DNA of 64,000 bases from a virus (Duplodnaviria > Heunggongvirae > Uroviricota > Caudoviricetes), in the IMG/VR virus record IMGVR_UViG_3300013902_000267. One strand, 5' to 3'. The notes below the pieces were generated by a model. It was not told where the DNA came from, did not search any database, and saw only the letters and a program-made list of their open reading frames with translations. Made by a program: the position numbers and the translations under genes. Every line of letters begins with the position of its first letter. Position 1 is the first letter of the stretch. This document shows, one piece after another, positions 5,534 through 57,748 of this stretch.

Positions 5534-7741
5534 TTAATTTCCACCGAATAACTTATCTAATTCTTCTTGTGACATTGCATCTACTGCATCATCACCATTT
5601 GTAGATGGTTCATCGTCTTTCTTATCATCTGATTTATCTTCATCAGAATCTGAATCACTATCATCTGAAGAATCACTGTCATCTGTTGAATCAGAATCGT
5701 CATCAACAATTTGTCCACCAATCATATCTTCAAATTCTTCTTTAGTAATACCATATTCGTTATTCAAAACATCTGCAAGATCATTTACATAATCTGTATT
5801 TGTTAAAACAACTTTAACTGGTTTATCATCACCATCTGCATTATCATCTGTTGAATCATCTGCATTTGCATCATCAGAATCTGAATCACTGTCGTCTGAA
5901 TCATCTGCATTTGCGTCATCAGAAGAATCATCATTATTATCTTCAAGTAATTTCTTGAACTTATTATAATGTAAAGACTCATTTGAAGCATTATCATCTG
6001 TATCAGAAGAATCATCTGAATTTTCATCATCAGTAGATGTATCATCTGCATTGTCATCTGTTGACTCACTATCATCTTTAGAATCATCAGTTTCATCATC
6101 TTCATCTTCAAACTCAATAGCATCATCTGGAACACCAGCATCTACAAGAGATTGCTTAAGCTCATCTGCTGCTGCTTGATTTGCAACTGTAATTACAACA
6201 CGTGATAACTCAACTTCTTCATCTGTATCTGGATTTTCATCTGTAGATGAATCATCAGCTTTATCCGTTGAACTATCATCTGCATTATCAGCATCATCAC
6301 TTGCATCATCTGAACCTGTTGGATCTACTGGTAATGGTTCCAATGGATTATCTTGTGTTTCTTCATCCTCATTCAACTTAAGACCTTTAGCTTTAATTAA
6401 TTTCTTATATGTTAAACGGTATGTAAGTTCTTCATCAAGAATATTCATTAACTTTTCTTTATTAAGAATTGAATCACGAAGTTCTCTCTTTGTTGATTTA
6501 GAAGCAGACTCATTCAAAGACTTATAAGATTTCATAAGTTTTGTATGCTGTGCTTTAACAGTATTTAACAATTCAAGAAGTTCTTTTGCTGTATATTCTG
6601 TAATATTCTTACCATTAATAGTTTTCTTCTCATAAAGATTCTTCTTACCAGACTTCATTGCTTTACGAATGAACTCAAACTTCTCTGAACCAATTGATTC
6701 CTTTAATGCAAGAAGTTCTCTTCTTTTCTGTTGAAGTTTTGCGTTTTTATTAACAGGTTCACTCTTAGCTTTATTAATTGCACGATTAATAATAGATTCA
6801 TTAAGTGTTGTTTTCTTTGCAGATTTTACAATATCCTTTGTGGTAAGTCCATTCTTTCTCATCTTCAATGCTTCAGAAAGATTTACAAGACGTTTACCAT
6901 TTCTTCTCTTTCCTGGACAACATCCTTTCTTTTTCTCAAGAAGCTTCTTTCTTTTTAAACGACGATCATTCTTTGATTCATAGCACTCAAACTCTTCATC
7001 TTCCATGCATTCATCAAATTCATCATCTGAATCATTCAAAGAATCTTCATCTGCAAATTCTTCATCTGCATCTTCATATGTCTCATCATAAAGATCATCA
7101 TCATCATCAAGTTCACCTTCTGCATCCATATCTGCATATGCATCATCTCTTGCATCCAATGCATCTGGATCATTAGGATCTACCTCATCATAATCTGGAA
7201 TCATATCATCATAATCATCTTCGTCATCAAGATAGTCATCATCAATAGACTCATCCATATCTACATAATCATCACCATATTCATCCTTCATATCATCAAT
7301 AGCTGTATCTCTTGCATCATCATCTTCTGGAATATCAAGCCATTCACCTTCATCATCAAGGCCATAGTCTTCATCCATATCTTGATAATCATCACCATAC
7401 TCATCTTCCATATCTGCTTCAGCTGCAGCACGTGCATCATCATCAGACTCTACATCGTCAAGTTCATCATCTGCGTCGTCATATGTAAAATAAGTATCAA
7501 CATCATCAATATTATATTCGTCTTCAAAAATATCAATAATATCATCTTGTGTAAGTCCGTCAATTACCATATATACGGTATCTCCATCCTCTTCCTTTGA
7601 TACTGTAGCGTCTGCATTCGTATCTTCAATATGTGTAGCCAAATCATCCATATTACCTTGAAGTTCAGGATAATCATGAACAAGCTATACAACATCAATC
7701 TTTACAGGAAATGCATAACTTTCATTAAGTTTTCTTTTCAT
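5534..7741 (-). CDS. Very acidic D/E-rich protein, 735 aa; candidate prohead core/scaffold
   Basis: Start MKRKLNESY at 7741 with one TAG at codon 19; internal DDDAR..DM.DEYGDDY repeats; several LNE motifs; function inferred. Confidence 0.7.
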
Positions 7742-7801
7742 ATTATATAAATAGAATTATTTTCTTTTTTATTATTTATCTTATTGAAAAATTACTATAA
7801 A

Positions 7802-8425
7802 TTAACTTAAATTAATTAATTTATTATAATATTCTTTCAATAATTGTTCACTTATTATATTATTACTCAACATATTGATATATGAAGTTTTAAATTCTTC
7901 ATAATCTTTATGTTTTATATCATTTCTTATCACAGTTGATGAAACACATTCATTATTATATTCATCATCTCTATTTATATAATGAATTGGTTCTATATTT
8001 GCATTTATATATATAGTTTTAATACCTATATCTTTATTATAATATTTGCCATTAATTGAATAAAGATTACAAAATTCTTCTTTACGTTTTATATCTGTTC
8101 CTTTATCTGATGTAACTAAACAGAATTTATCATTGTTCAAAGAATTTCCAACATCATTATAACATTTTCTAATAGGTGCAGGATATTCAGATATATTCAC
8201 TTTTATTTCTGTATTATATAAATCTGATAATTTATCTTTTATACTATTTAAAAACCAAAGACTAGAATCTGCTGTTATTGAATCTCTATCTTTATATGAA
8301 ATATAAATACGTGCTTCATCAATATGAACATTATCTGTATTAAAGATATGTGACCTTAATATAGATAAATGTCCATCATGAAATGGTTTAAAACCACCCG
8401 GAAATAATAATATATTTTTACTCAT
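7802..8425 (-). CDS. HxGH-class nucleotidyltransferase (cytidylyltransferase-like)
   Basis: LLFPGGFKPFHDGH motif and a C-terminal VSST. Confidence 0.8.
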   Translation of the reverse strand: MSKNILLFPGGFKPFHDGHLSILRSHIFNTDNVHIDEARIYISYKDRDSITADSSLWFLNSIKDKLSDLYNTEIKVNISEYPAPIRKCYNDVGNSLNNDKFCLVTSDKGTDIKRKEEFCNLYSINGKYYNKDIGIKTIYINANIEPIHYINRDDEYNNECVSSTVIRNDIKHKDYEEFKTSYINMLSNNIISEQLLKEYYNKLINLS

Positions 8426-43274: not shown

Positions 43275-43751
43275 ATGAAGGTTATGAAGACAAATATTAA
43301 TATAAAGAATAAGAAAGCATATTTTGATTATACTTTTATAGAGACATTTATAGCAGGTATTATATTAACAGGAACAGAGATTAAATCTATAAGGCAAGGT
43401 AAAGCATCTCTTGTAGATACATTCTGTTATGTTAAAGATAATAGGGAAGTATGGATGACAAATTCTTATATAGCACCATATGAAAATAGTGGATATATTA
43501 AACATGAAGAAAGACGTCAGAGAAAACTTCTTCTGAATAAGAATGAGATTAAAAGATTATATAGAGAAACAAGAATTCCGGGTATTACAATTGTTCCTGT
43601 GAGAATGTTTATAAATGAAAGAGGATTATGTAAAGTAGAGATTGCTTTATGTAAAGGTAAAAAAGAATATGATAAGAGAGATTCTATTAAGGAAAAAGAT
43701 AATAAGAGAAATCTTGATAGAGTTATGAAGAATTATACATATGTTAATTAA
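43275..43751 (+). CDS. smpB: SsrA-binding protein SmpB
   Basis: [35 protein letters not shown]. Confidence 0.97.
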
Positions 43752-47978: not shown

Positions 47979-48545
47979 ATGGCACAGAAATCATCAATAG
48001 AAAGACAGCATGAATTTGATATTGCATATATGAACATGGCTCTCGCTATGAGTAAACTTTCATATGCAATTAAGAAACAAGTAGGTTGTATTATTGTATC
48101 TAAGGATGATCAGGTAATTTCCCAAGGATTTAATGGTATGCCTATTGGAATGCCTAATATCTGTGAGGAAATCTATAATATCAATACAGGTGAACATACA
48201 ACACTTGAAACTCCTGAATCATATCATGATAAGAAGAAGCAAGAGGAAATTCTTGTACAGTACCGTAATATCAATAAAGGTATGATGCCAGGCTTTCGAC
48301 TTATTACAAAGGATATTACCTTGCATGCTGAAAGCAATGCAGTAACGAAACTTGCTAAGTATAATTCATCAGCAAAAGGTGGAACCGTATATGTAACACT
48401 TTCTCCTTGTATTCATTGTGCTAAACTTTTGGTACAATCAGAGGTATCTCGTGTTGTTTATCTTAATAATTATAAGAGTGATGCAGGTATTAAACTTTTG
48501 GAAGAATGTGACATTGTAGTAGAGAAACTTAATATTGATGAGTAA
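47979..48545 (+). CDS. dCMP deaminase
   Basis: QVGCII, GFNG, HAESNA, SPCIHC. Confidence 0.92.
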   Translation: MAQKSSIERQHEFDIAYMNMALAMSKLSYAIKKQVGCIIVSKDDQVISQGFNGMPIGMPNICEEIYNINTGEHTTLETPESYHDKKKQEEILVQYRNINKGMMPGFRLITKDITLHAESNAVTKLAKYNSSAKGGTVYVTLSPCIHCAKLLVQSEVSRVVYLNNYKSDAGIKLLEECDIVVEKLNIDE

Positions 48546-49462
48546 TGAATATAGATAAATTAAAAAAAGATATATCAATATCTATTAAAGATACATTAAA
48601 AAAATATAATTTTAATGATTCCAAAATTAATGATATTTTGGAATCATTAAATTCATATATGGATGAAGGAATAGAGTTTGATGATGAAACACATATTGTT
48701 TCATTCAATCCAAATCATCAAGAATATGTAGATACAAATGATCCTTGGAACCCGAAACCTATATATAATGAAGTAGAAGGTTATAAGGTAATTTCGATAT
48801 TTAAACGTAAAGAAACAGAAGATAGATATGATGGTAATCCATTAATTTATGCATTAAAAGGTTTGCATGGATGGAAATTTTCAAATCCATCATATGATAT
48901 ATTTGCTTTATTACGTAGATTCGTTGCAGTTACAAAAGAATTAAAAGAAAAGTTTGATGTAATTATTACTATACCTTCTTCAAATAAATTAAATACAGAA
49001 GTATTATATAGAGTTAAAAAACTTATTACGTGCGAACATACATATACTGATTTTTTCCAGAAGCTTGATGCAAATGACGTATATGAAGGTTTTTTAAATA
49101 CTGATTGGTTTGATACTCATTGTAAAAATAAAGAAGAGGAAGAAAAAATACATAAGTTAATATCAAGATCAATACGGCATATGAATTTACCAAAAAATAA
49201 AAATGGCAATGATGGAATATTTTCATATAAATTTTTAGGTAAACCATTAAGGAATGCAATTATTCAATCTATGTATATTAATGATATATATAAAGATGAA
49301 ATTACATATGGAAAATATCTTAATGATAAGAAGATATTGGTTATAGATGATACAGTTACATCAGGTAAAACTATATCAGATTCTGCTGATGCTATATTGG
49401 AAACTTATGCACCAAAATCAATAACATTTTTAACTTTATTTTCTCCATTAACAAAAAATTAA
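48545..49462 (+). CDS. Phosphoribosyltransferase-domain protein (ComF-like)
   Basis: PRPP-binding ILVIDDTVTSGKT; TIPSS. Confidence 0.8.
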   Translation: MNIDKLKKDISISIKDTLKKYNFNDSKINDILESLNSYMDEGIEFDDETHIVSFNPNHQEYVDTNDPWNPKPIYNEVEGYKVISIFKRKETEDRYDGNPLIYALKGLHGWKFSNPSYDIFALLRRFVAVTKELKEKFDVIITIPSSNKLNTEVLYRVKKLITCEHTYTDFFQKLDANDVYEGFLNTDWFDTHCKNKEEEEKIHKLISRSIRHMNLPKNKNGNDGIFSYKFLGKPLRNAIIQSMYINDIYKDEITYGKYLNDKKILVIDDTVTSGKTISDSADAILETYAPKSITFLTLFSPLTKN

Positions 49463-49778: not shown

Positions 49779-49869
49779 ACACAGATGTGCGAGTGGTTGA
49801 TGCAGTTGGTCTCCAAAACCAATAACGGTATATATGTACTGTTCGAGGGTTCGAATCCTTCTCTGTGTG
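49779..49869 (+). tRNA. tRNA-Trp(CCA) with a long variable arm
   Basis: acacaga/tctgtgt acceptor; ttggt-CTCCAAA-accaa; 7-bp V-arm; TTCGAAT T-loop. Confidence 0.8.
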
Positions 49870-50061
49870 CAAATTAAAAATTTATACAAATAAAATAAGA
49901 ATAATATGACAAAGTTAATACGACATATACATAAGCATCGAATACAGTTATAAATTGTTGATCTTATATTATACATTATTATATATAGGATTGACATAAG
50001 AAATCATGTTCCTATATGTTTAATGATATATTGTTGTATTATATTTAGGAACACTCCATAG

Positions 50062-51065: not shown

Positions 51066-51136
51066 GGGTATTTAGCTGGAAGGTCAAGCATCTGACTGTT
51101 AATCAGAAGACGTGGGTTCGATTCCCTCAGTACCCG
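51066..51136 (+). tRNA. tRNA-Asn(GTT)
   Basis: tctga-CTGTTAA-tcaga; cloverleaf. Confidence 0.85.
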
Positions 51137-51484
51137 CAAGTTAAAAACATAACATTTATATATGAAGGCTCGTACCTTTCAAATTCAGATGATACCGTCA
51201 AGGCGGAGATATATAATGTTTCTGAATATGTTTTTGATGATTGATTAAATAATAACGTAGTTTAACGGTAAATGAAGTCTTACGTTAAAGTAAGGGTTAA
51301 ACAATTTAAGAAATAAAAACAGCGCTATTTCTTTTATTTCTTAAAAAGAAGGGTTCATCACTGCGTATTGCAACTATGAAGTAAGGGAAGTGCAACTCCA
51401 CCCTGTTAGTTATTTAATCTTATTTTTAATTTAAATTAAATTTTTATTATAGTATACCACTTGTGAAAGCAGTATACTAGATTT

Positions 51485-52185: not shown

Positions 52186-52515
52186 CGCTAGGTGTGAAAC
52201 ATTACAGTAATAAGGATTAAACTATATTATTAGGCAATATACTTAATTACTTATTAAATAAATGAATTAAAGTAAACATGTAGGATATATTATTAAGTCT
52301 AAATATAAAATATATTTGAAGGCGTATCTTAAATTCATTCTGGTTAGAACCTATTTTAAATCCTATAGGTGAACGGGCAGCGGTGAATGTTTCAGGTAAA
52401 ATTTAATGAAATATATTATCCCACAGGGCAAGGGCGTGCTATTAAAATACCGTAAAGCCGGTAAGCTATAAGAGTATTAAAAGGTTCAATTCCTTTTGTA
52501 TATTTCATTAATTTT

Positions 52516-52598
52516 GGGTGAGTGTCCCGAGTGGCAAAGGGGGCTGACTGTAAATCAGCTGTCATTTGACTTCGTAGGTTCGAGTCCTACCTCACCCA
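52516..52598 (+). tRNA. tRNA-Tyr(GTA)
   Basis: gctga-CTGTAAA-tcagc; long variable arm. Confidence 0.95.
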
Positions 52599-52603
52599 CA
52601 AAT

Positions 52604-53020
52604 ATGTCAGAATTAAAAGAATATATATGTGAATCTTGTAATAAAAAGTTTTATTCTACTAAGACTTTTAGAAAAGATAGACATATAAAATGTGATGAAT
52701 GCAAACAAAAACGTAAACATTCTAAAGAAAATGAATTAAATAGTATATTAGATTGTTCTAAAAGAACAATATCTAAAATATTGAAACGTTCAAAAATAGG
52801 ATGTGCAATATGTGGGTGGAATGAATCTACTTGTGATATTCATCATATAATAGAAAAATCTAATGGTGGAACTGATGATATTTCTAATTTAATTATTGTA
52901 TGTCCAAATCATCATAGAATGATACATACGAATAAATGCTATTCAATAGATTATTTACAAAGTTTATCTATTAAAAATACATTTAATAATTGGAAAGATT
53001 ATTATCATCCAGAAAGATAA
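52604..53020 (+). CDS. HNH endonuclease, 138 aa
   Basis: CAICG..DIHHI..GG..NL..CPNHH; ATG 5 nt after tRNA-Tyr. Confidence 0.85.
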   Translation: MSELKEYICESCNKKFYSTKTFRKDRHIKCDECKQKRKHSKENELNSILDCSKRTISKILKRSKIGCAICGWNESTCDIHHIIEKSNGGTDDISNLIIVCPNHHRMIHTNKCYSIDYLQSLSIKNTFNNWKDYYHPER

Positions 53021-53589: not shown

Positions 53590-53664
53590 GGACCTTGCGT
53601 ATGGCTGGTGCCTGTACATCGGACTGAAACTCCGGGGGTGGTTGTTCGATTCAACCAGGGTCCA
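53590..53664 (+). tRNA. tRNA-Phe(GAA)
   Basis: tcgga-CTGAAAC-tccgg; atypical D-arm. Confidence 0.82.
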
Positions 53665-53995
53665 CAAGTTATTAGAAATATACTTTACAGTTTTAATGTC
53701 GTATATTATCTAATAATGATATAAACAAGTATAGACTTCCAAGTAGAATAATGAGTAAGTTTATAATTATATGCTAGCTAATTTATAGACAGAAGAACTG
53801 ATAAGGGTTACAGGTCAATTATTGAAAGGAATTGGTTTGAACATTAGTTCATAGATGTGAAGAGCAGCAGATTTCGTAAGAAGCCATAAGTTGACACACA
53901 ACAATTTCGTAAAACAGCGCAAGTGCCTAATAGCGAGTATTCCTTTATATAAAGGGTGAAAAAGTCTGTGTCTCGTAAATCTACTTGTTTAATTT

Positions 53996-55108: not shown

Positions 55109-55443
55109 TATATAACGAGAGTTAGTAGTATAGCATTGTCCGGACCATTATTAAAAGTTTTAATTATTTCTTTTAGTAATGATATGCTGATTTAAATTAT
55201 AAATAAATAGATTTAAAAAATAATTATGAATATAAGTAATTTAACCTTATATTTAAGAGAGACTGAAAGATTATTTTAATCTATTGATAATTAGTTTCAG
55301 GAGTTGAATATAGTTTTAATCATGATATGTAGTTCTATTAAAATAAACTTCATGATATAGGAAGTATATGTTTTCTCGGTAAAGTATACGCCTGAATATT
55401 AGAATAAAAAGAATAGTGTCCGTAGATAAACTATTCAAATTTT

Positions 55444-55658
55444 GCTTCGATAGTTCAGTTGGTTAGAACGTCTGACTGTATACAGGAAACAACCTGATTA
55501 AATTAAACTACATAATGCTGTTAGGTATCAGACTTGCGGACGCAATATTGATTTATAACTATTATAGTAATAAATTTAAATCGCTGAAAGTTTAGTTGGT
55601 TCGAATCCAATTTATGTAGCTAATCAGAAAGTCGTAGGTTCGAGTCCTACTCGAAGCG
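55444..55658 (+). tRNA. tRNA-Asn(GTT) interrupted by a 141-nt anticodon-loop insert (55480-55620)
   Basis: gcttcga/tcgaagc acceptor; tctga..tcaga stem; loop CTGT|TAA; G73. Confidence 0.8.
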
Positions 55659-55663
55659 CAAAT

Positions 55664-56320
55664 ATGAGAGAAAAAGAATGTCGTATATGCCATATTCATG
55701 GTAATACATTATTTTCTTTATATACATATAATAATAAAATACATTGGGTATGTAATAAATGTTAGACAGAATATGTATAGCGACGTCGAGAACATTTAAA
55801 ATTATTATCAGTTGCATATAAAGGAAATAAATGTCAATGTTGTGGATATAATAAATGTATATCTGCATTAGAATTTCACCATATAGATCCTAATAAAAAA
55901 GAGTTTGGAATAGGATATGCAGGTTATACACATGGATGGAATGATGTTAAATTAGAATTAGATAAATGTATTTTAGTATGCGCAAATTGTCATAGAGAAA
56001 TACATGCTAATATAATAAAATGCCCAACTGAAATTATAAAAGATGAAGAAAATGTTAATATTTTATTAAATAAATTTAAATTTGATTCTATAAATAGGAA
56101 TAATGATTATAAAAAATTAGTTGAAAAAATAGAACCAATTAAAAATTATACAATTCCTACAAAAGAAGAATTAATACAATTATTTAAGAAATATATTACA
56201 TTTGAAAATATTGGTAGATTATATGGTATTACAGGAAATGCCATTAAAAAATGGTGTAAAAAATATGATTTACCATATAAATCAAAAGAATTAAAAGAAT
56301 ATATAAATAAATTACCATAA
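55664..56320 (+). CDS. HNH endonuclease with C-terminal HTH, 218 aa
   Basis: CQCCG..LEFHH..KCILVCANCHREIH; 2 TAGs. Confidence 0.85.
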
Positions 56321-56752: not shown

Positions 56753-57748
56753 ATGAAATAGAATTTAGAATTTTTATCAGATGACGAATTAATATAGGAA
56801 TATAGAAATTGTAATTATTCTTTAAAAGCAGTTGATAAGAAATATAATAAATCTGGAAATACTTTATTACGATTATTTAGAAAACGTAATATAGATTATA
56901 ATAAGATAAAGAATGATTATTTATTACAATAGAAACAATTTGAAGAAAGTAAAGTTTTATATTGTGAGAATTGTGGTAAAGTAATAGATGGTTATTATGG
57001 TTCTGGAAGATTTTGTAATAGATATTGTGCAACTGCATATGGCAATTCACATAGAGCAAAAAGAACAGAAGAATCAAAAAAGAAAACATCTATTAGTGTA
57101 AAAAATTCTATTAAATGTTAGATAGCTGCTGAACGTTCAAGAAAAATATATTAGTGCAAATATTGTAATAAAGATTTTTCTGTGTTTGATATACGCAATA
57201 TTAGAGGAAGAACATATTGTTCAAAAGAATGTAAACACAAATATTTATCTGCACATACTGGTGGTTATCGAGAAGGTTCTGGAAGAGGCAAACAAGGATG
57301 GTATAAAGGAATTCATTGTGATAGTTCATGGGAATTAGCATTTCTTGTTTATTATAAAGATCATAATTTAAATATAGAACGTTGTAAAGAAAAAAGGTCT
57401 TATATTTGGAATAATGAAGTTCATTCATATTATCCTGATTTTATAACAGATGACGGGATAATAGAAATAAAAGGATATTCTACAGATTAGTGGAAATTAA
57501 AAGAAAACTAGAATCCGGATGTAAAAGTTTTATATAAAGATGATATAAAACCATATTTAGATTATGTAATAAATACATATGGTACTGATTTTATTAAATT
57601 ATATGATGGTTATAATCCAAAATTAGATTTGAAAAATTATACTTATGTATGGGTTCATAATGAAAAAGAGAATCATATGATTAGAACAGAATTATATGAT
57701 GAATATATAAATAATGGTTATATAAGAGGAAGAAAAACTTTTAAATAA
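56753..57748 (+). CDS. TnsA-like PD-(D/E)xK homing endonuclease with zinc modules, 331 aa
   Basis: CENCGK..GSGRFC; DSSWELAF..YYPDF..IEIKGY; several TAGs. Confidence 0.8.

What the first reader, a model, noticed from the sequence alone, without database searches (positions are those of the whole stretch)
55444..55660. Russian-doll tRNA: a tRNA-like element inside the anticodon of tRNA-Asn
Seen: the outer tRNA-Asn is split at CTGT|TAA by 141 nt. The insert has a 29-nt leader with a cagg/cctg hairpin, then a second scaffold: 7-bp acceptor tacataa (55509)/ttatgta (55618), D-arm ctg-ttaggtat-cag, T-arm gttgg-TTCGAAT-ccaat, G73-C74, and a swollen anticodon arm. The inner C74 (55620) is exactly the last base of the insert. 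It is too short for a group I intron and lacks the terminal G. An intact tRNA-Asn exists at 51066, and an HNH gene follows 5 nt after. Inference: tRNA-processing enzymes could excise the inner unit and define the 3' exon, giving a processing-driven splicing route; or this is a tRNA decoy. I recall tRNA introns being noted in Lak phages but cannot verify details.
Basis: partly seen in the sequence, partly recalled or inferred. Interest (0 to 1): 0.75.

Follow-up and report, generated by a model that had tools for sequence, protein, structure and literature searches.

The report
tRNA-shaped intron in megaphage tRNA-Asn
A Lak megaphage asparagine-tRNA gene is split inside its anticodon by a small mobile insert that is itself folded like a tRNA; the insert was already listed in 2019 as an "enigmatic intron", and its 3' end falls exactly where this phage and its host seem to trim ordinary tRNAs, which suggests how one of its two ends is cut.

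Summary
Window 55444-55659 is a tRNA-Asn(GUU) gene split between anticodon bases 35 and 36 by a 141-nt insert (55480-55620). Lak-A1 and Lak-C1 carry the same gene and HNH neighbour without the insert.

The window is a Lak-B-type Prevotella megaphage. Devoto et al. 2019 (PMC6784885, Table S6) already list this insert, mis-typed as "tRNA-Tyr(GTA) intron".

- Lak-A/C carry a 93-nt version at the same loop position in the other tRNA-Asn paralogue, which is intact here at 51066. The element has therefore moved between paralogues.
- Five Lak host tRNAs (Asn, Gly, Thr, Phe, Met) share one design: WUA start, leader hairpin, A/U linker, 8-bp helix, GG loop, T-arm, one final C.
- The 3' splice site is always 9 nt after the T stem. 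"Helix, C, then A/U" is also how nearly all Lak and Prevotellaceae tRNA genes end.
- The phage encodes RNA ligases and a CCA-adding enzyme, but no RtcB, EndA, RNase Z or RNase P RNA.

Best reading: a protein-spliced, tRNA-shaped mobile intron. The 3' cut is explained by tRNA 3' processing; the 5' cut is not.

No RNA evidence of splicing was obtained. This scan has noted tRNA-shaped phage introns on other DNA before.

The parts
55444..55479 (+). Exon 1 of tRNA-Asn(GUU): acceptor 5' strand, D-arm, anticodon stem 5' strand, and loop bases C32 U33 G34 U35
   Evidence: ARAGORN on the joined exons. Alignment with the uninterrupted Lak-A1/C1 alleles (A1).
55480..55620 (+). The 141-nt insert (intron), between anticodon bases 35 and 36
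   Evidence: Exactly absent from the Lak-A1/C1 orthologues. 99.3% identical in Lak-B1, B3, B6 and B9. [quoted passage not shown]
55480..55507 (+). 28-nt leader: AUA, then hairpin CAGG (55483-86) / loop AAACAA / CCUG (55493-96), then A/U linker ending AAAUUAAA (55497-55507)
   Evidence: Predicted in the minimum-energy folds. The same layout is found in the Gly, Thr, Phe and Met introns. Identical in the 93-nt Lak-A/C version.
55508..55515 (+). 5' strand of the 8-bp acceptor-like helix (CUACAUAA)
   Evidence: 8/8 pairs with 55612-55619. Across five families 40/40 pairs form, and every position covaries.
55516..55531 (+). D-like arm (CUG / UUAGGUAU / CAG) carrying the GG dinucleotide
   Evidence: Read from the sequence. 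A GG lies between the helix and the T-arm in every family member.
55532..55594 (+). Expanded anticodon-arm position. The stem ACUU/AAGU encloses a 51-nt lineage-specific segment (55536-55586), which is replaced by 3 nt in Lak-A/C.
   Evidence: Comparison of the 141-nt and 93-nt versions.
55595..55611 (+). T-arm: GUUGG / UUCGAAU / CCAAU
   Evidence: Canonical T-loop. The T stems form 25/25 pairs, with compensatory changes across families.
55612..55620 (+). 3' strand of the 8-bp helix (UUAUGUAG), followed by a single unpaired C at 55620, the last base of the insert
   Evidence: The distance from the end of the T stem to the 3' splice site is 9 nt in all five families.
55621..55659 (+). Exon 2 of tRNA-Asn: U36 A37 A38, anticodon stem 3' strand, variable loop, T-arm, acceptor 3' strand, G73, C74
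55664..56320 (+). Free-standing HNH endonuclease gene, read with TAG = Gln, starting 4 nt after the tRNA
   Evidence: phrog_2255 HNH endonuclease, E = 2.5e-31. Weak Pfam HNH match. Homologues lie next to uninterrupted tRNA-Asn genes in Lak-A/C and in a distant phage, L143.
51066..51137 (+). Intact paralogous tRNA-Asn(GUU). Its orthologue in Lak-A1/C1 carries the 93-nt version of the same insert at the same loop position.
   Evidence: alignment A4.

Best explanation
**What it is.** A member of a Lak-megaphage family of small, ORF-less, mobile tRNA-gene introns whose RNA mimics the acceptor/T-arm/elbow half of a tRNA.

**Proposed route.** The gene is transcribed as one pre-tRNA, and the outer cloverleaf and the inner L-shape fold side by side. 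Four steps follow:
1. The enzyme that trims the 3' ends of ordinary tRNAs in this host (RNase Z-type) reads the inner helix and T-arm. It cuts after the single C that follows the 8-bp helix. This is exactly the intron/exon-2 junction and leaves 5'-phosphate on exon 2.
2. RNase P probably cuts at the 5' end of the 8-bp helix and frees the tRNA-like body.
3. A further endonucleolytic cut at N|WUA, about 3 nt upstream of the leader hairpin, removes the 28-nt leader from exon 1. The enzyme is unknown. An RNase E/G-like enzyme or a hairpin-guided nuclease are the candidates.
4. One of the phage's ATP-dependent RNA ligases joins exon-1 3'-OH to exon-2 5'-phosphate, and the phage CCA-adding enzyme finishes the 3' end.

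**Spread at the DNA level.** The element moves among alleles and between the two tRNA-Asn paralogues. The free-standing endonuclease genes that crowd the tRNA cluster probably help.

**Shown here:** the anatomy, the exact boundaries, the mobility, the family-wide geometry, the match to local tRNA 3'-end style, and the enzyme inventory.

**Inferred:** that it is spliced at all, and every enzymatic step.
For: **Boundaries and mobility.**
- The insert is precisely present or absent at two orthologous loci, in opposite senses in Lak-B and in Lak-A/C.
- The shared parts of the intron are 96-97% identical between clades. The flanks are about 84% identical.
- The tRNA-Phe intron, together with a 288-aa endonuclease-like ORF, is present in other Lak-B genomes and absent here. 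Exon 2 differs between those alleles.

**Family design.**
- Five host tRNAs (Asn, Gly, Thr, Phe, Met) share the same order of parts.
- The 8-bp helix forms 40/40 pairs and covaries at every position. The T stems form 25/25 pairs. A GG loop and a UUCGWWU T-loop are always present.
- In Phe the helix has shifted register by one base, yet '8 bp + one C' and the 9-nt distance to the 3' splice site are kept.

**3' splice site matches tRNA 3' ends.**
- N73-C74-nonC ends 18/19 window tRNA genes, 48/51 in other Lak loci, and 36/41 in Prevotella sp. 885 plus Leyella stercorea.
- Two non-Lak recoded phages encode CCA in 36/41 genes.

**Exons stay tRNA-shaped.**
- Intron-bearing alleles keep fully paired stems through compensatory differences from the intron-less alleles (Asn; Phe).
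- Lak-A1 and A2 have no tRNA-Thr gene other than the intron-bearing one (PMC6784885 Table S2A).

**Enzymes.**
- Present in Lak-B1/A1: several PF09414 RNA ligase ORFs and a PF01743 nucleotidyltransferase.
- Not found: RtcB, EndA, an RNase Z-type fold, RNase P RNA.
- So cutting must use host enzymes that leave 3'-OH and 5'-phosphate, the ends an ATP-dependent ligase needs.

**5' splice site.** All five introns start W-U-A, and 4 of 5 have a purine at -2. This resembles the RNase E RN|WU preference; that comparison rests on my own knowledge and was not tested.
Against: - No RNA evidence. Only assembled contigs could be laid. The one 'joined' form seen belongs to a divergent relative that probably lacks the insert in its DNA.
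- The 5' splice site is not an RNase P or RNase Z site of the inner unit, and I found no conserved pairing that defines it. A leader:exon-1 pairing that fitted four families fails in the Met intron. An exon-2 pairing holds only in Asn, and weakly in Phe.
- Canonical RNase Z cuts after N73. Here N73 is paired and the junction lies after position 74. Cleavage after C74 is inferred from gene-end conservation, not measured.
- Every Lak clade keeps one intact tRNA-Asn, so this copy could be dispensable.
- The five families share ancestry. Conservation of short motifs such as WUA may therefore be inheritance rather than constraint.
Confidence: 0.5

Rival explanations
1. Unspliced selfish insertion. 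The element disrupts this tRNA-Asn copy for good. The phage relies on the intact paralogue at 51066 and on host tRNA-Asn. The insert persists because it is mobile, or because it breaks the recognition site of a neighbouring homing endonuclease. tRNA-processing enzymes merely release the inner tRNA-like RNA and two dead halves.
For: - One intact Asn paralogue is kept in each clade.
- An HNH gene sits 4 nt downstream, and other endonuclease-like ORFs lie beside intron-bearing tRNAs.
- No RNA evidence of a joined product.
- No enzyme found for the 5' cut.
Against: - All five families sit only in anticodon loops, at 35|36 or 36|37, in genes whose exons remain perfect cloverleaves with compensatory changes.
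- Lak-A1/A2 have only the intron-bearing tRNA-Thr.
- The same HNH lies next to the uninterrupted allele in Lak-A/C, so the insert is not needed for self-protection there.
- The exact '8 bp + C' geometry is conserved at the exon-2 junction, which a dead gene would not require.
Confidence: 0.25
2. A new, very small self-splicing or self-cleaving RNA. The leader plus the tRNA-like body catalyse their own removal, or cut themselves with a host ligase sealing the exons.
For: - Sequence and structure are highly conserved without any ORF.
- The leader hairpin with its conserved A-rich loop has no assigned role.
Against: - Members of 79-141 nt are far below any known self-splicing core.
- No match to any Rfam ribozyme or intron at E <= 10.
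- The conserved parts are exactly the parts that tRNA-processing proteins read (helix, T-loop, GG elbow), not a novel core.
- The first and last bases do not fit group I or group II rules.
Confidence: 0.07
3. A DNA-level hairpin transposon (a non-autonomous IS200/IS605-like element) that inserts 3' of a short target without duplication and excises precisely. On this view the tRNA likeness is incidental.
For: - Insertion and loss are precise, with no target duplication.
- Hairpins lie near both ends.
- The element has moved to a second site that shares only GACTGT|TAATC with the first.
Against: - Targets differ among families (CTGT, TTCC, TTGT, TGAA, TCAT), yet all lie in tRNA anticodon loops.
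- The GG elbow, the T-loop and the match to tRNA 3' ends are RNA-level features.
- No search for a Y1 transposase gene was made.
Confidence: 0.04
4. The main role of the insert is to supply a tRNA decoy or small regulatory RNA. The released tRNA-like RNA would, for example, soak up a tRNA-binding host defence factor. Its position inside a tRNA gene would only provide transcription and processing.
For: - The inner RNA keeps the elbow and the acceptor helix.
- Phage tRNA clusters are commonly discussed as counter-measures to tRNA-targeting defences; this rests on my own knowledge.
Against: - The anticodon arm, the usual target of anticodon nucleases, is the least conserved part.
- There is no CCA and no recognisable identity elements.
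- Nothing explains why such a gene must sit inside an anticodon loop at an exact position.
Confidence: 0.04

Closest known systems
'Enigmatic' tRNA introns of Lak megaphages (Devoto et al. 2019, Nat Microbiol, PMC6784885; Fig. 4, Table S6)
   Same: It is the same object. [quoted passage not shown] The paper also notes that a sibling intron (in 'tRNA-Thr') may itself encode a tRNA.
   Different: - The paper types the host gene as tRNA-Tyr(GTA), because eukaryotic tRNAscan settings assume a 37/38 intron. Comparison with intron-less alleles shows tRNA-Asn(GUU) split at 35|36.
- It reports no Rfam hit and no fold for this intron.
- It does not note that the B and A/C copies sit in different paralogues.
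- It does not describe the shared leader / 8-bp helix / final-C design, or the link to tRNA 3'-end style.
- It proposes no mechanism.
tRNA-shaped mini-introns ending in CCA in other large phages
   Same: Both sit in an anticodon loop, have an acceptor plus T-arm look-alike, carry no ribozyme core, occur in phages that encode ATP-dependent RNA ligase, and are present or absent among relatives.
   Different: - Those inserts are said to run exactly from a tRNA 5' end to CCA, so RNase P alone could define the 5' splice site.
- The Lak family has an extra 27-31-nt leader with a hairpin, an 8-bp rather than 7-bp helix, and ends in a single C.
- I did not examine any CCA-type example myself.
Group I introns in bacterial and phage tRNA anticodon loops (e.g. 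cyanobacterial tRNA-Leu(UAA), Azoarcus tRNA-Ile; some carry homing endonucleases)
   Same: Both sit in a tRNA anticodon loop, are mobile, and are associated with homing-endonuclease genes.
   Different: This insert has no P3-P9 core, no terminal G, and a 5' exon that does not always end in U. It is 79-141 nt against roughly 200 nt or more (size range from my own knowledge). Rfam gives no match.
Archaeal and eukaryal bulge-helix-bulge tRNA introns, cut by the EndA/Sen endonuclease and joined by RtcB or Trl1
   Same: In both, a protein-dependent route removes a short intron from the anticodon loop and a ligase joins the halves.
   Different: No bulge-helix-bulge forms in the predicted folds. Neither EndA nor RtcB is found in the phage. 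The expected ends are 3'-OH/5'-phosphate rather than cyclic phosphate/5'-OH.
Collaborative homing of an ORF-less intron with a free-standing endonuclease (cyanophage psbA intron and F-CphI; cited from my own knowledge)
   Same: An ORF-less intron lies next to a free-standing endonuclease gene, and exon sequence differs between intron-plus and intron-minus alleles (Phe locus).
   Different: The HNH here also sits beside the intron-less allele in Lak-A/C. Its target is unknown. Nothing about it was tested.

Membership tests
Lak megaphage tRNA intron family (leader type) | Insertion inside a tRNA anticodon loop, precisely absent from an intron-less allele | tested here: met
   Alignments A1 and A4.
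Lak megaphage tRNA intron family (leader type) | W-U-A start, a 4-6-bp leader hairpin with an A-rich hexaloop, and an A/U linker ending AAAUUAAA | tested here: met
   Asn, Gly, Thr, Phe; Met.
Lak megaphage tRNA intron family (leader type) | 8-bp closing helix, a loop containing GG, a 5-bp T stem with a UUCGWWU loop, and one final C lying 9 nt after the T stem | tested here: met
   40/40 helix pairs and 25/25 T-stem pairs.
Group I intron | Conserved catalytic core (P3-P9), detectable by the Rfam group I intron covariance model | tested here: not met
   No such match at E <= 10 in 55380-55720.
Group I intron | The last intron base is G, and the 5' exon ends in U paired to a G of an internal guide | tested here: not met
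   The last base is C in all five families. The 5' exon ends in U, C, U, A and U.
Bulge-helix-bulge tRNA intron | Two 3-nt bulges separated by a 4-bp helix at the two splice sites | tested here: not met
   The minimum-energy folds of six precursors show a multibranch loop and no bulge-helix-bulge.
Bulge-helix-bulge tRNA intron | A splicing endonuclease (EndA, PF01974) is available | tested here: not met
   None found in Lak-B1 or Lak-A1, while the archaeal controls matched. The host genome was not searched.
Genuine tRNA gene (the inner unit) | Scores as a tRNA with standard detectors | tested here: not met
   ARAGORN at default settings finds none. Rfam RF00005 gives no hit to the inner unit at E <= 10. 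ARAGORN calls it only at a relaxed threshold and with an assumed intron.
Genuine tRNA gene (the inner unit) | A 5-bp anticodon stem with a 7-nt loop | tested here: not met
   That position holds a 63-nt expanded arm here, a short ACUU/AAGU hairpin in Lak-A/C, and nothing in the Gly and Phe members.
Substrate of tRNA 3'-end processing (works-like claim) | Acceptor/T-arm stack with an elbow, followed by the same 3' context as the local tRNA genes | tested here: met
   Helix + C + A/U matches N73-C74-nonC in 18/19, 48/51 and 36/41 tRNA genes.
Substrate of tRNA 3'-end processing (works-like claim) | Actual cleavage at that bond by RNase Z | not testable with these tools
   This needs an enzyme assay or RNA end mapping.

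The most novel reading that the evidence does not exclude
Bacteria and their phages have a protein-only tRNA splicing route that needs no dedicated splicing endonuclease. The intron disguises itself as a tRNA, so the housekeeping tRNA end-trimming enzymes cut it out, and a phage ATP-dependent RNA ligase reseals the anticodon loop. A ruler measured from the intron's own T-arm sets the 3' splice site (8-bp helix plus one base). The style of the intron's 3' end co-evolves with the host's tRNA 3'-end style: a lone C in Prevotella phages, CCA elsewhere.
Probability: 0.4. Interest if true: 0.85.

Novelty: already known. Interest (0 to 1): 0.55.

Why it matters
**The open question.** Bacteria are thought to remove tRNA introns only by self-splicing (group I). 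These Lak inserts have no ribozyme core, and neither the phage nor typical bacteria have a tRNA-splicing endonuclease. If they are spliced, the route is a third kind of tRNA splicing. It has been open since the 2019 report.

**What this analysis contributes.**
- It corrects the host tRNA to Asn, not Tyr.
- It shows the element hops between paralogues.
- It defines a family-wide design.
- It gives a concrete, cheap test: the 3' junction should be cut by the host tRNA 3'-processing enzyme after the single C, at a position set by the length of the inner helix.

**A side result.** Prevotellaceae and their megaphages appear to keep C74 in tRNA genes. That points to 3' processing after position 74 in this group.

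Tried and rejected
**RNA evidence.** The one run search and the one read-laying run gave assembled contigs only.
- DNA runs X1 and X2 hold the insert.
- RNA-labelled run X20 has a divergent relative with a 140-nt shorter stretch. That is best read as an intron-less DNA allele, not as splicing.
- Nothing can be said about expression.

**Leader:exon-1 pairing.** I proposed that the 5' strand of the leader hairpin pairs with C32-U33-N34 and so defines the 5' splice site. It fitted Asn, Phe, Gly and Thr but fails in the Met intron. Three-base matches are expected by chance in A/U-rich leaders. Dropped.

**Leader:exon-2 pairing.** GAUUA:UAAUC gives 5 bp in Asn and 4/5 in Phe, and nothing in Gly and Thr. 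Dropped.

**Alternative helix at the 5' end.** An alternative helix using the intron's first bases, which would make the 5' splice site an RNase P site, gives 6/8 pairs in Asn and only about 4/8 elsewhere. Dropped.

**A shared ruler for both cuts.** I considered a symmetrical '13 layers from the elbow' ruler for both cuts. The distances vary (35|36 against 36|37), and the geometry argument is speculative.

**Collection scans.**
- One search found only more Gly introns.
-, a guess at a CCA-type Asn mini-intron, gave two chance hits.
- The single metagenome scan gave more Gly copies and one new Met family.

**Covariance model.** Not built. MAFFT placed the stems of the variable middle and the shifted Phe helix in different columns (A2, A3), so pairs were counted with a script instead.

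**Phage-encoded enzymes.** RtcB, EndA, an RNase Z-type metallo-beta-lactamase and RNase P RNA were not found in Lak-B1/A1. The T4 Rnl1 family search had a silent control and so says nothing.

**SmpB.** I considered phage SmpB as a partner of the anticodon-less inner RNA. The phage has its own tmRNA, so no such link is needed.

Full report
**What the window is.**
- The region is 99.7% identical to Prevotella phage Lak-B1, B3, B6 and B9.
- The ORF after the tRNA has in-frame TAG codons. That fits the TAG = Gln recoding of Lak megaphages.
- The finding lies inside a cluster of 19 tRNA genes.

**Check of the observation.**
- Joining 55444-55479 to 55621-55660 gives a canonical tRNA-Asn(GUU).
- ARAGORN's intron mode shifts the insert by one base and calls the gene tRNA-Ser(GCU). 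Comparison settles the point: Lak-A1 and Lak-C1 have the same gene, the same flanks and the same downstream HNH gene, with an uninterrupted CTGTTAA loop (alignment A1).
- The insert is therefore 55480-55620, 141 nt, between U35 and U36. No other placement is possible.
- The insert folded alone gives the leader hairpin and a cloverleaf closed by an 8-bp helix, with the last C unpaired (z = -2.15).
- A descriptor of 7/7 acceptor, 5/5 T stem and a TTCRANY loop gives 0.64 chance hits per 64 kb on both strands. In the real window it picks out the tRNAs and this element.
- Standard detectors do not call the inner unit a tRNA.

**It is already in the literature.**
- Devoto et al. 2019 (PMC6784885) report "tRNAs with highly conserved introns" in Lak phages.
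- The Tyr call comes from eukaryotic tRNAscan settings, which assume a 37/38 intron.
- They noted a possible tRNA inside a sibling intron ("tRNA-Thr(TGT)", Fig. 4), but not in this one. They proposed no mechanism.
- Literature searches found nothing later that explains these introns.
- Earlier notes of this scan describe tRNA-shaped introns ending in CCA in many other large phages. One note covers this same insert in another window. I treat all of these as leads only.

**Mobility.**
- Lak-A1 and Lak-C1 carry a 93-nt version of the insert. It is 96-97% identical over the leader, the helix and the T-arm, and 3 nt stand where the 51-nt middle segment lies here.
- That version sits in the other tRNA-Asn gene, the orthologue of the intact window gene at 51066, and again at CTGT|TAA (alignment A4).
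- The two target genes share only GACTGT|TAATC around the site in Lak-A/C.
- The flanks of the 55444 locus are about 84% identical between clades, so the insert is better conserved than its surroundings.
- The tRNA-Phe gene of Lak-B1 and of two IMG/VR Lak-B contigs carries an 86-nt relative of the insert, followed by a 288-aa zinc-ribbon, restriction-endonuclease-like ORF. The window has neither, and its exon 2 differs at many positions while staying fully paired.
- A DNA run holds a relative about 5% diverged that also contains the 141-nt insert.

**The family design.** I compared seven sequences from five host tRNAs: Asn (two versions), Gly (two), Thr, Phe (two), and a newly found tRNA-Met(CAU) intron in a metagenome contig. 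All share this order of parts:
1. The 5' splice site.
2. W-U-A.
3. A 4-6-bp hairpin with an A-rich six-base loop.
4. An A/U linker, mostly ending AAAUUAAA.
5. An 8-bp helix.
6. A hairpin or loop containing GG.
7. An optional arm at the anticodon position.
8. A 5-bp T stem with a UUCGWWU loop.
9. The 8-nt return strand of the helix.
10. One C, then the 3' splice site.

Further points on the design:
- The helix forms 40/40 pairs, against about 22 when partners are swapped between families, and it covaries at every position. The T stems form 25/25 pairs.
- In the Phe introns the helix is shifted by one base relative to its homologues. An extra A restores "8 bp + C" and the 9-nt distance from the T stem to the junction.
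- The conserved parts are the ones that RNase P, RNase Z and CCA-adding enzyme read on tRNAs: the coaxial acceptor/T stack and the G18-G19/T-loop elbow (my own knowledge). The anticodon arm is the free-to-vary part.

**The 3' splice site looks like a tRNA 3' end.**
- In the window, 18 of 19 tRNA genes end N73-C74 followed by a non-C base. They do not end in CCA.
- The same holds for 48 of 51 tRNA genes in other Lak loci, and for 36 of 41 in Prevotella sp. 885 and Leyella stercorea.
- Two unrelated TAG-recoded phages encode CCA in 36 of 41 genes.
- Such conservation of C74 suggests that 3' trimming in this host leaves C74, or needs it.
- The intron ends with a helix, one C, then A/U-rich exon 2. 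Its 3' junction was fixed independently by the intron-less alleles, and it falls on the bond that would be the 3'-processing site of a local tRNA.
- If the earlier notes are right that introns in CCA-encoding phages end in CCA, the intron end tracks the tRNA-end style of its system. I could not check a CCA-type example.

**The 5' splice site is unexplained.**
- RNase P acting on the inner helix would leave the 27-31-nt leader on exon 1.
- The junction lies about 3 nt upstream of the leader hairpin in all families and is always followed by W-U-A. Four of five have a purine two bases upstream. This resembles the RNase E preference (my own knowledge) but is weak evidence in A/U-rich, related sequences.
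- Three pairing schemes that could have defined the site did not hold across families (see Tried and rejected).

**Enzymes.**
- Lak-B1 and Lak-A1 encode several PF09414 RNA ligase ORFs, one about 10 kb from this tRNA cluster, and a CCA-adding-type nucleotidyltransferase.
- They show no RtcB, EndA, RNase Z-type fold or RNase P RNA, although the controls for those searches matched.
- Cutting would therefore fall to host enzymes. RNase P, RNase Z and RNase E all leave 3'-OH and 5'-phosphate (my own knowledge), which is what an ATP-dependent ligase joins.

**Is it spliced at all?**
- For: the inserts sit only in anticodon loops; the exons stay intact and show compensatory changes; Lak-A1/A2 have only an intron-bearing tRNA-Thr; and the geometry at the exon-2 junction is conserved.
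- Against: there are no RNA data; one intact Asn copy is kept in every clade; and the 5' cut is unexplained.
- I put about 0.5 on protein-dependent splicing that uses the tRNA disguise, and about 0.25 on an unspliced selfish insertion. The rest is spread over a new ribozyme, a DNA-only hairpin transposon and a decoy role.

**Verdict.**
- The object was published in 2019 with the wrong tRNA identity and no mechanism.
- The question is now sharper and testable at the bench.

Noticed in passing
window 43275-43751 (+); Lak-B1 414201-414610 (L283): The phage encodes a full SmpB (Pfam SmpB, E = 2.7e-55), 59-66% identical to Bacteroidales SmpB. Lak-B1 and Lak-A1 also carry a tmRNA gene at about the Rfam gathering score, so these megaphages have their own trans-translation pair.
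   Followed up: partly
window 49779-49870 (+): tRNA-Trp(CCA) is 92 nt long and has a variable arm with an 8-bp stem. That is a class II-like shape, which is unusual for tRNA-Trp. It is conserved in Lak-A/C (L005, L006).
   Followed up: no
window 53590-53665, compared with L139:6921-7083 and 7134-8000, and L014:1481-1566: Other Lak-B genomes, including Lak-B1, have an 86-nt intron of the same family in tRNA-Phe, followed by a 288-aa zinc-ribbon, restriction-endonuclease-like ORF. The window has neither, and its exon 2 is diverged. Devoto et al. list only one intron for B1, so the Lak-B Phe intron appears to be unreported.
   Followed up: partly
L156:9450-9545 (- strand; contig JAEIGA010000865.1): A fifth host for the family: tRNA-Met(CAU) is split at 36|37 by a 94-nt intron with the same design of leader hairpin, 8-bp helix, T-arm and final C.
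   Followed up: partly
all 19 tRNA genes of the window; L250-L279 (Prevotella sp. 885, Leyella stercorea): tRNA genes of Lak phages and of Prevotellaceae almost always encode C74 but not C75-A76. Two unrelated recoded phages (L141, L143) encode full CCA. This hints at 3' processing after position 74 in this bacterial group.
   Followed up: partly
window 52496-53020, 55664-56320 and 56753-57748 (+): At least two HNH genes and one further endonuclease-like ORF lie interspersed among the tRNA genes. The listed TTG start of the first ORF overlaps tRNA-Tyr (52516-52599), so its true start probably lies further downstream. An HNH homologue also sits just after tRNA-Asn in a distant phage (L143).
   Followed up: partly
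window 47979-48545 and 48545-49462 (+): A cytidine/deoxycytidylate-deaminase-fold protein (possibly TadA-like) and a phosphoribosyltransferase-like protein lie immediately upstream of the tRNA cluster.
   Followed up: no
PMC6784885 Table S2B, Lak-B2 and B4 (130852-131026 and 130755-130929): The paper's table lists a 175-nt 'Pseudo GTA' at the position of this gene in B2 and B4. This may be a third length variant of the insert, or it may be truncated coordinates. Those records were not retrievable here.
   Followed up: no
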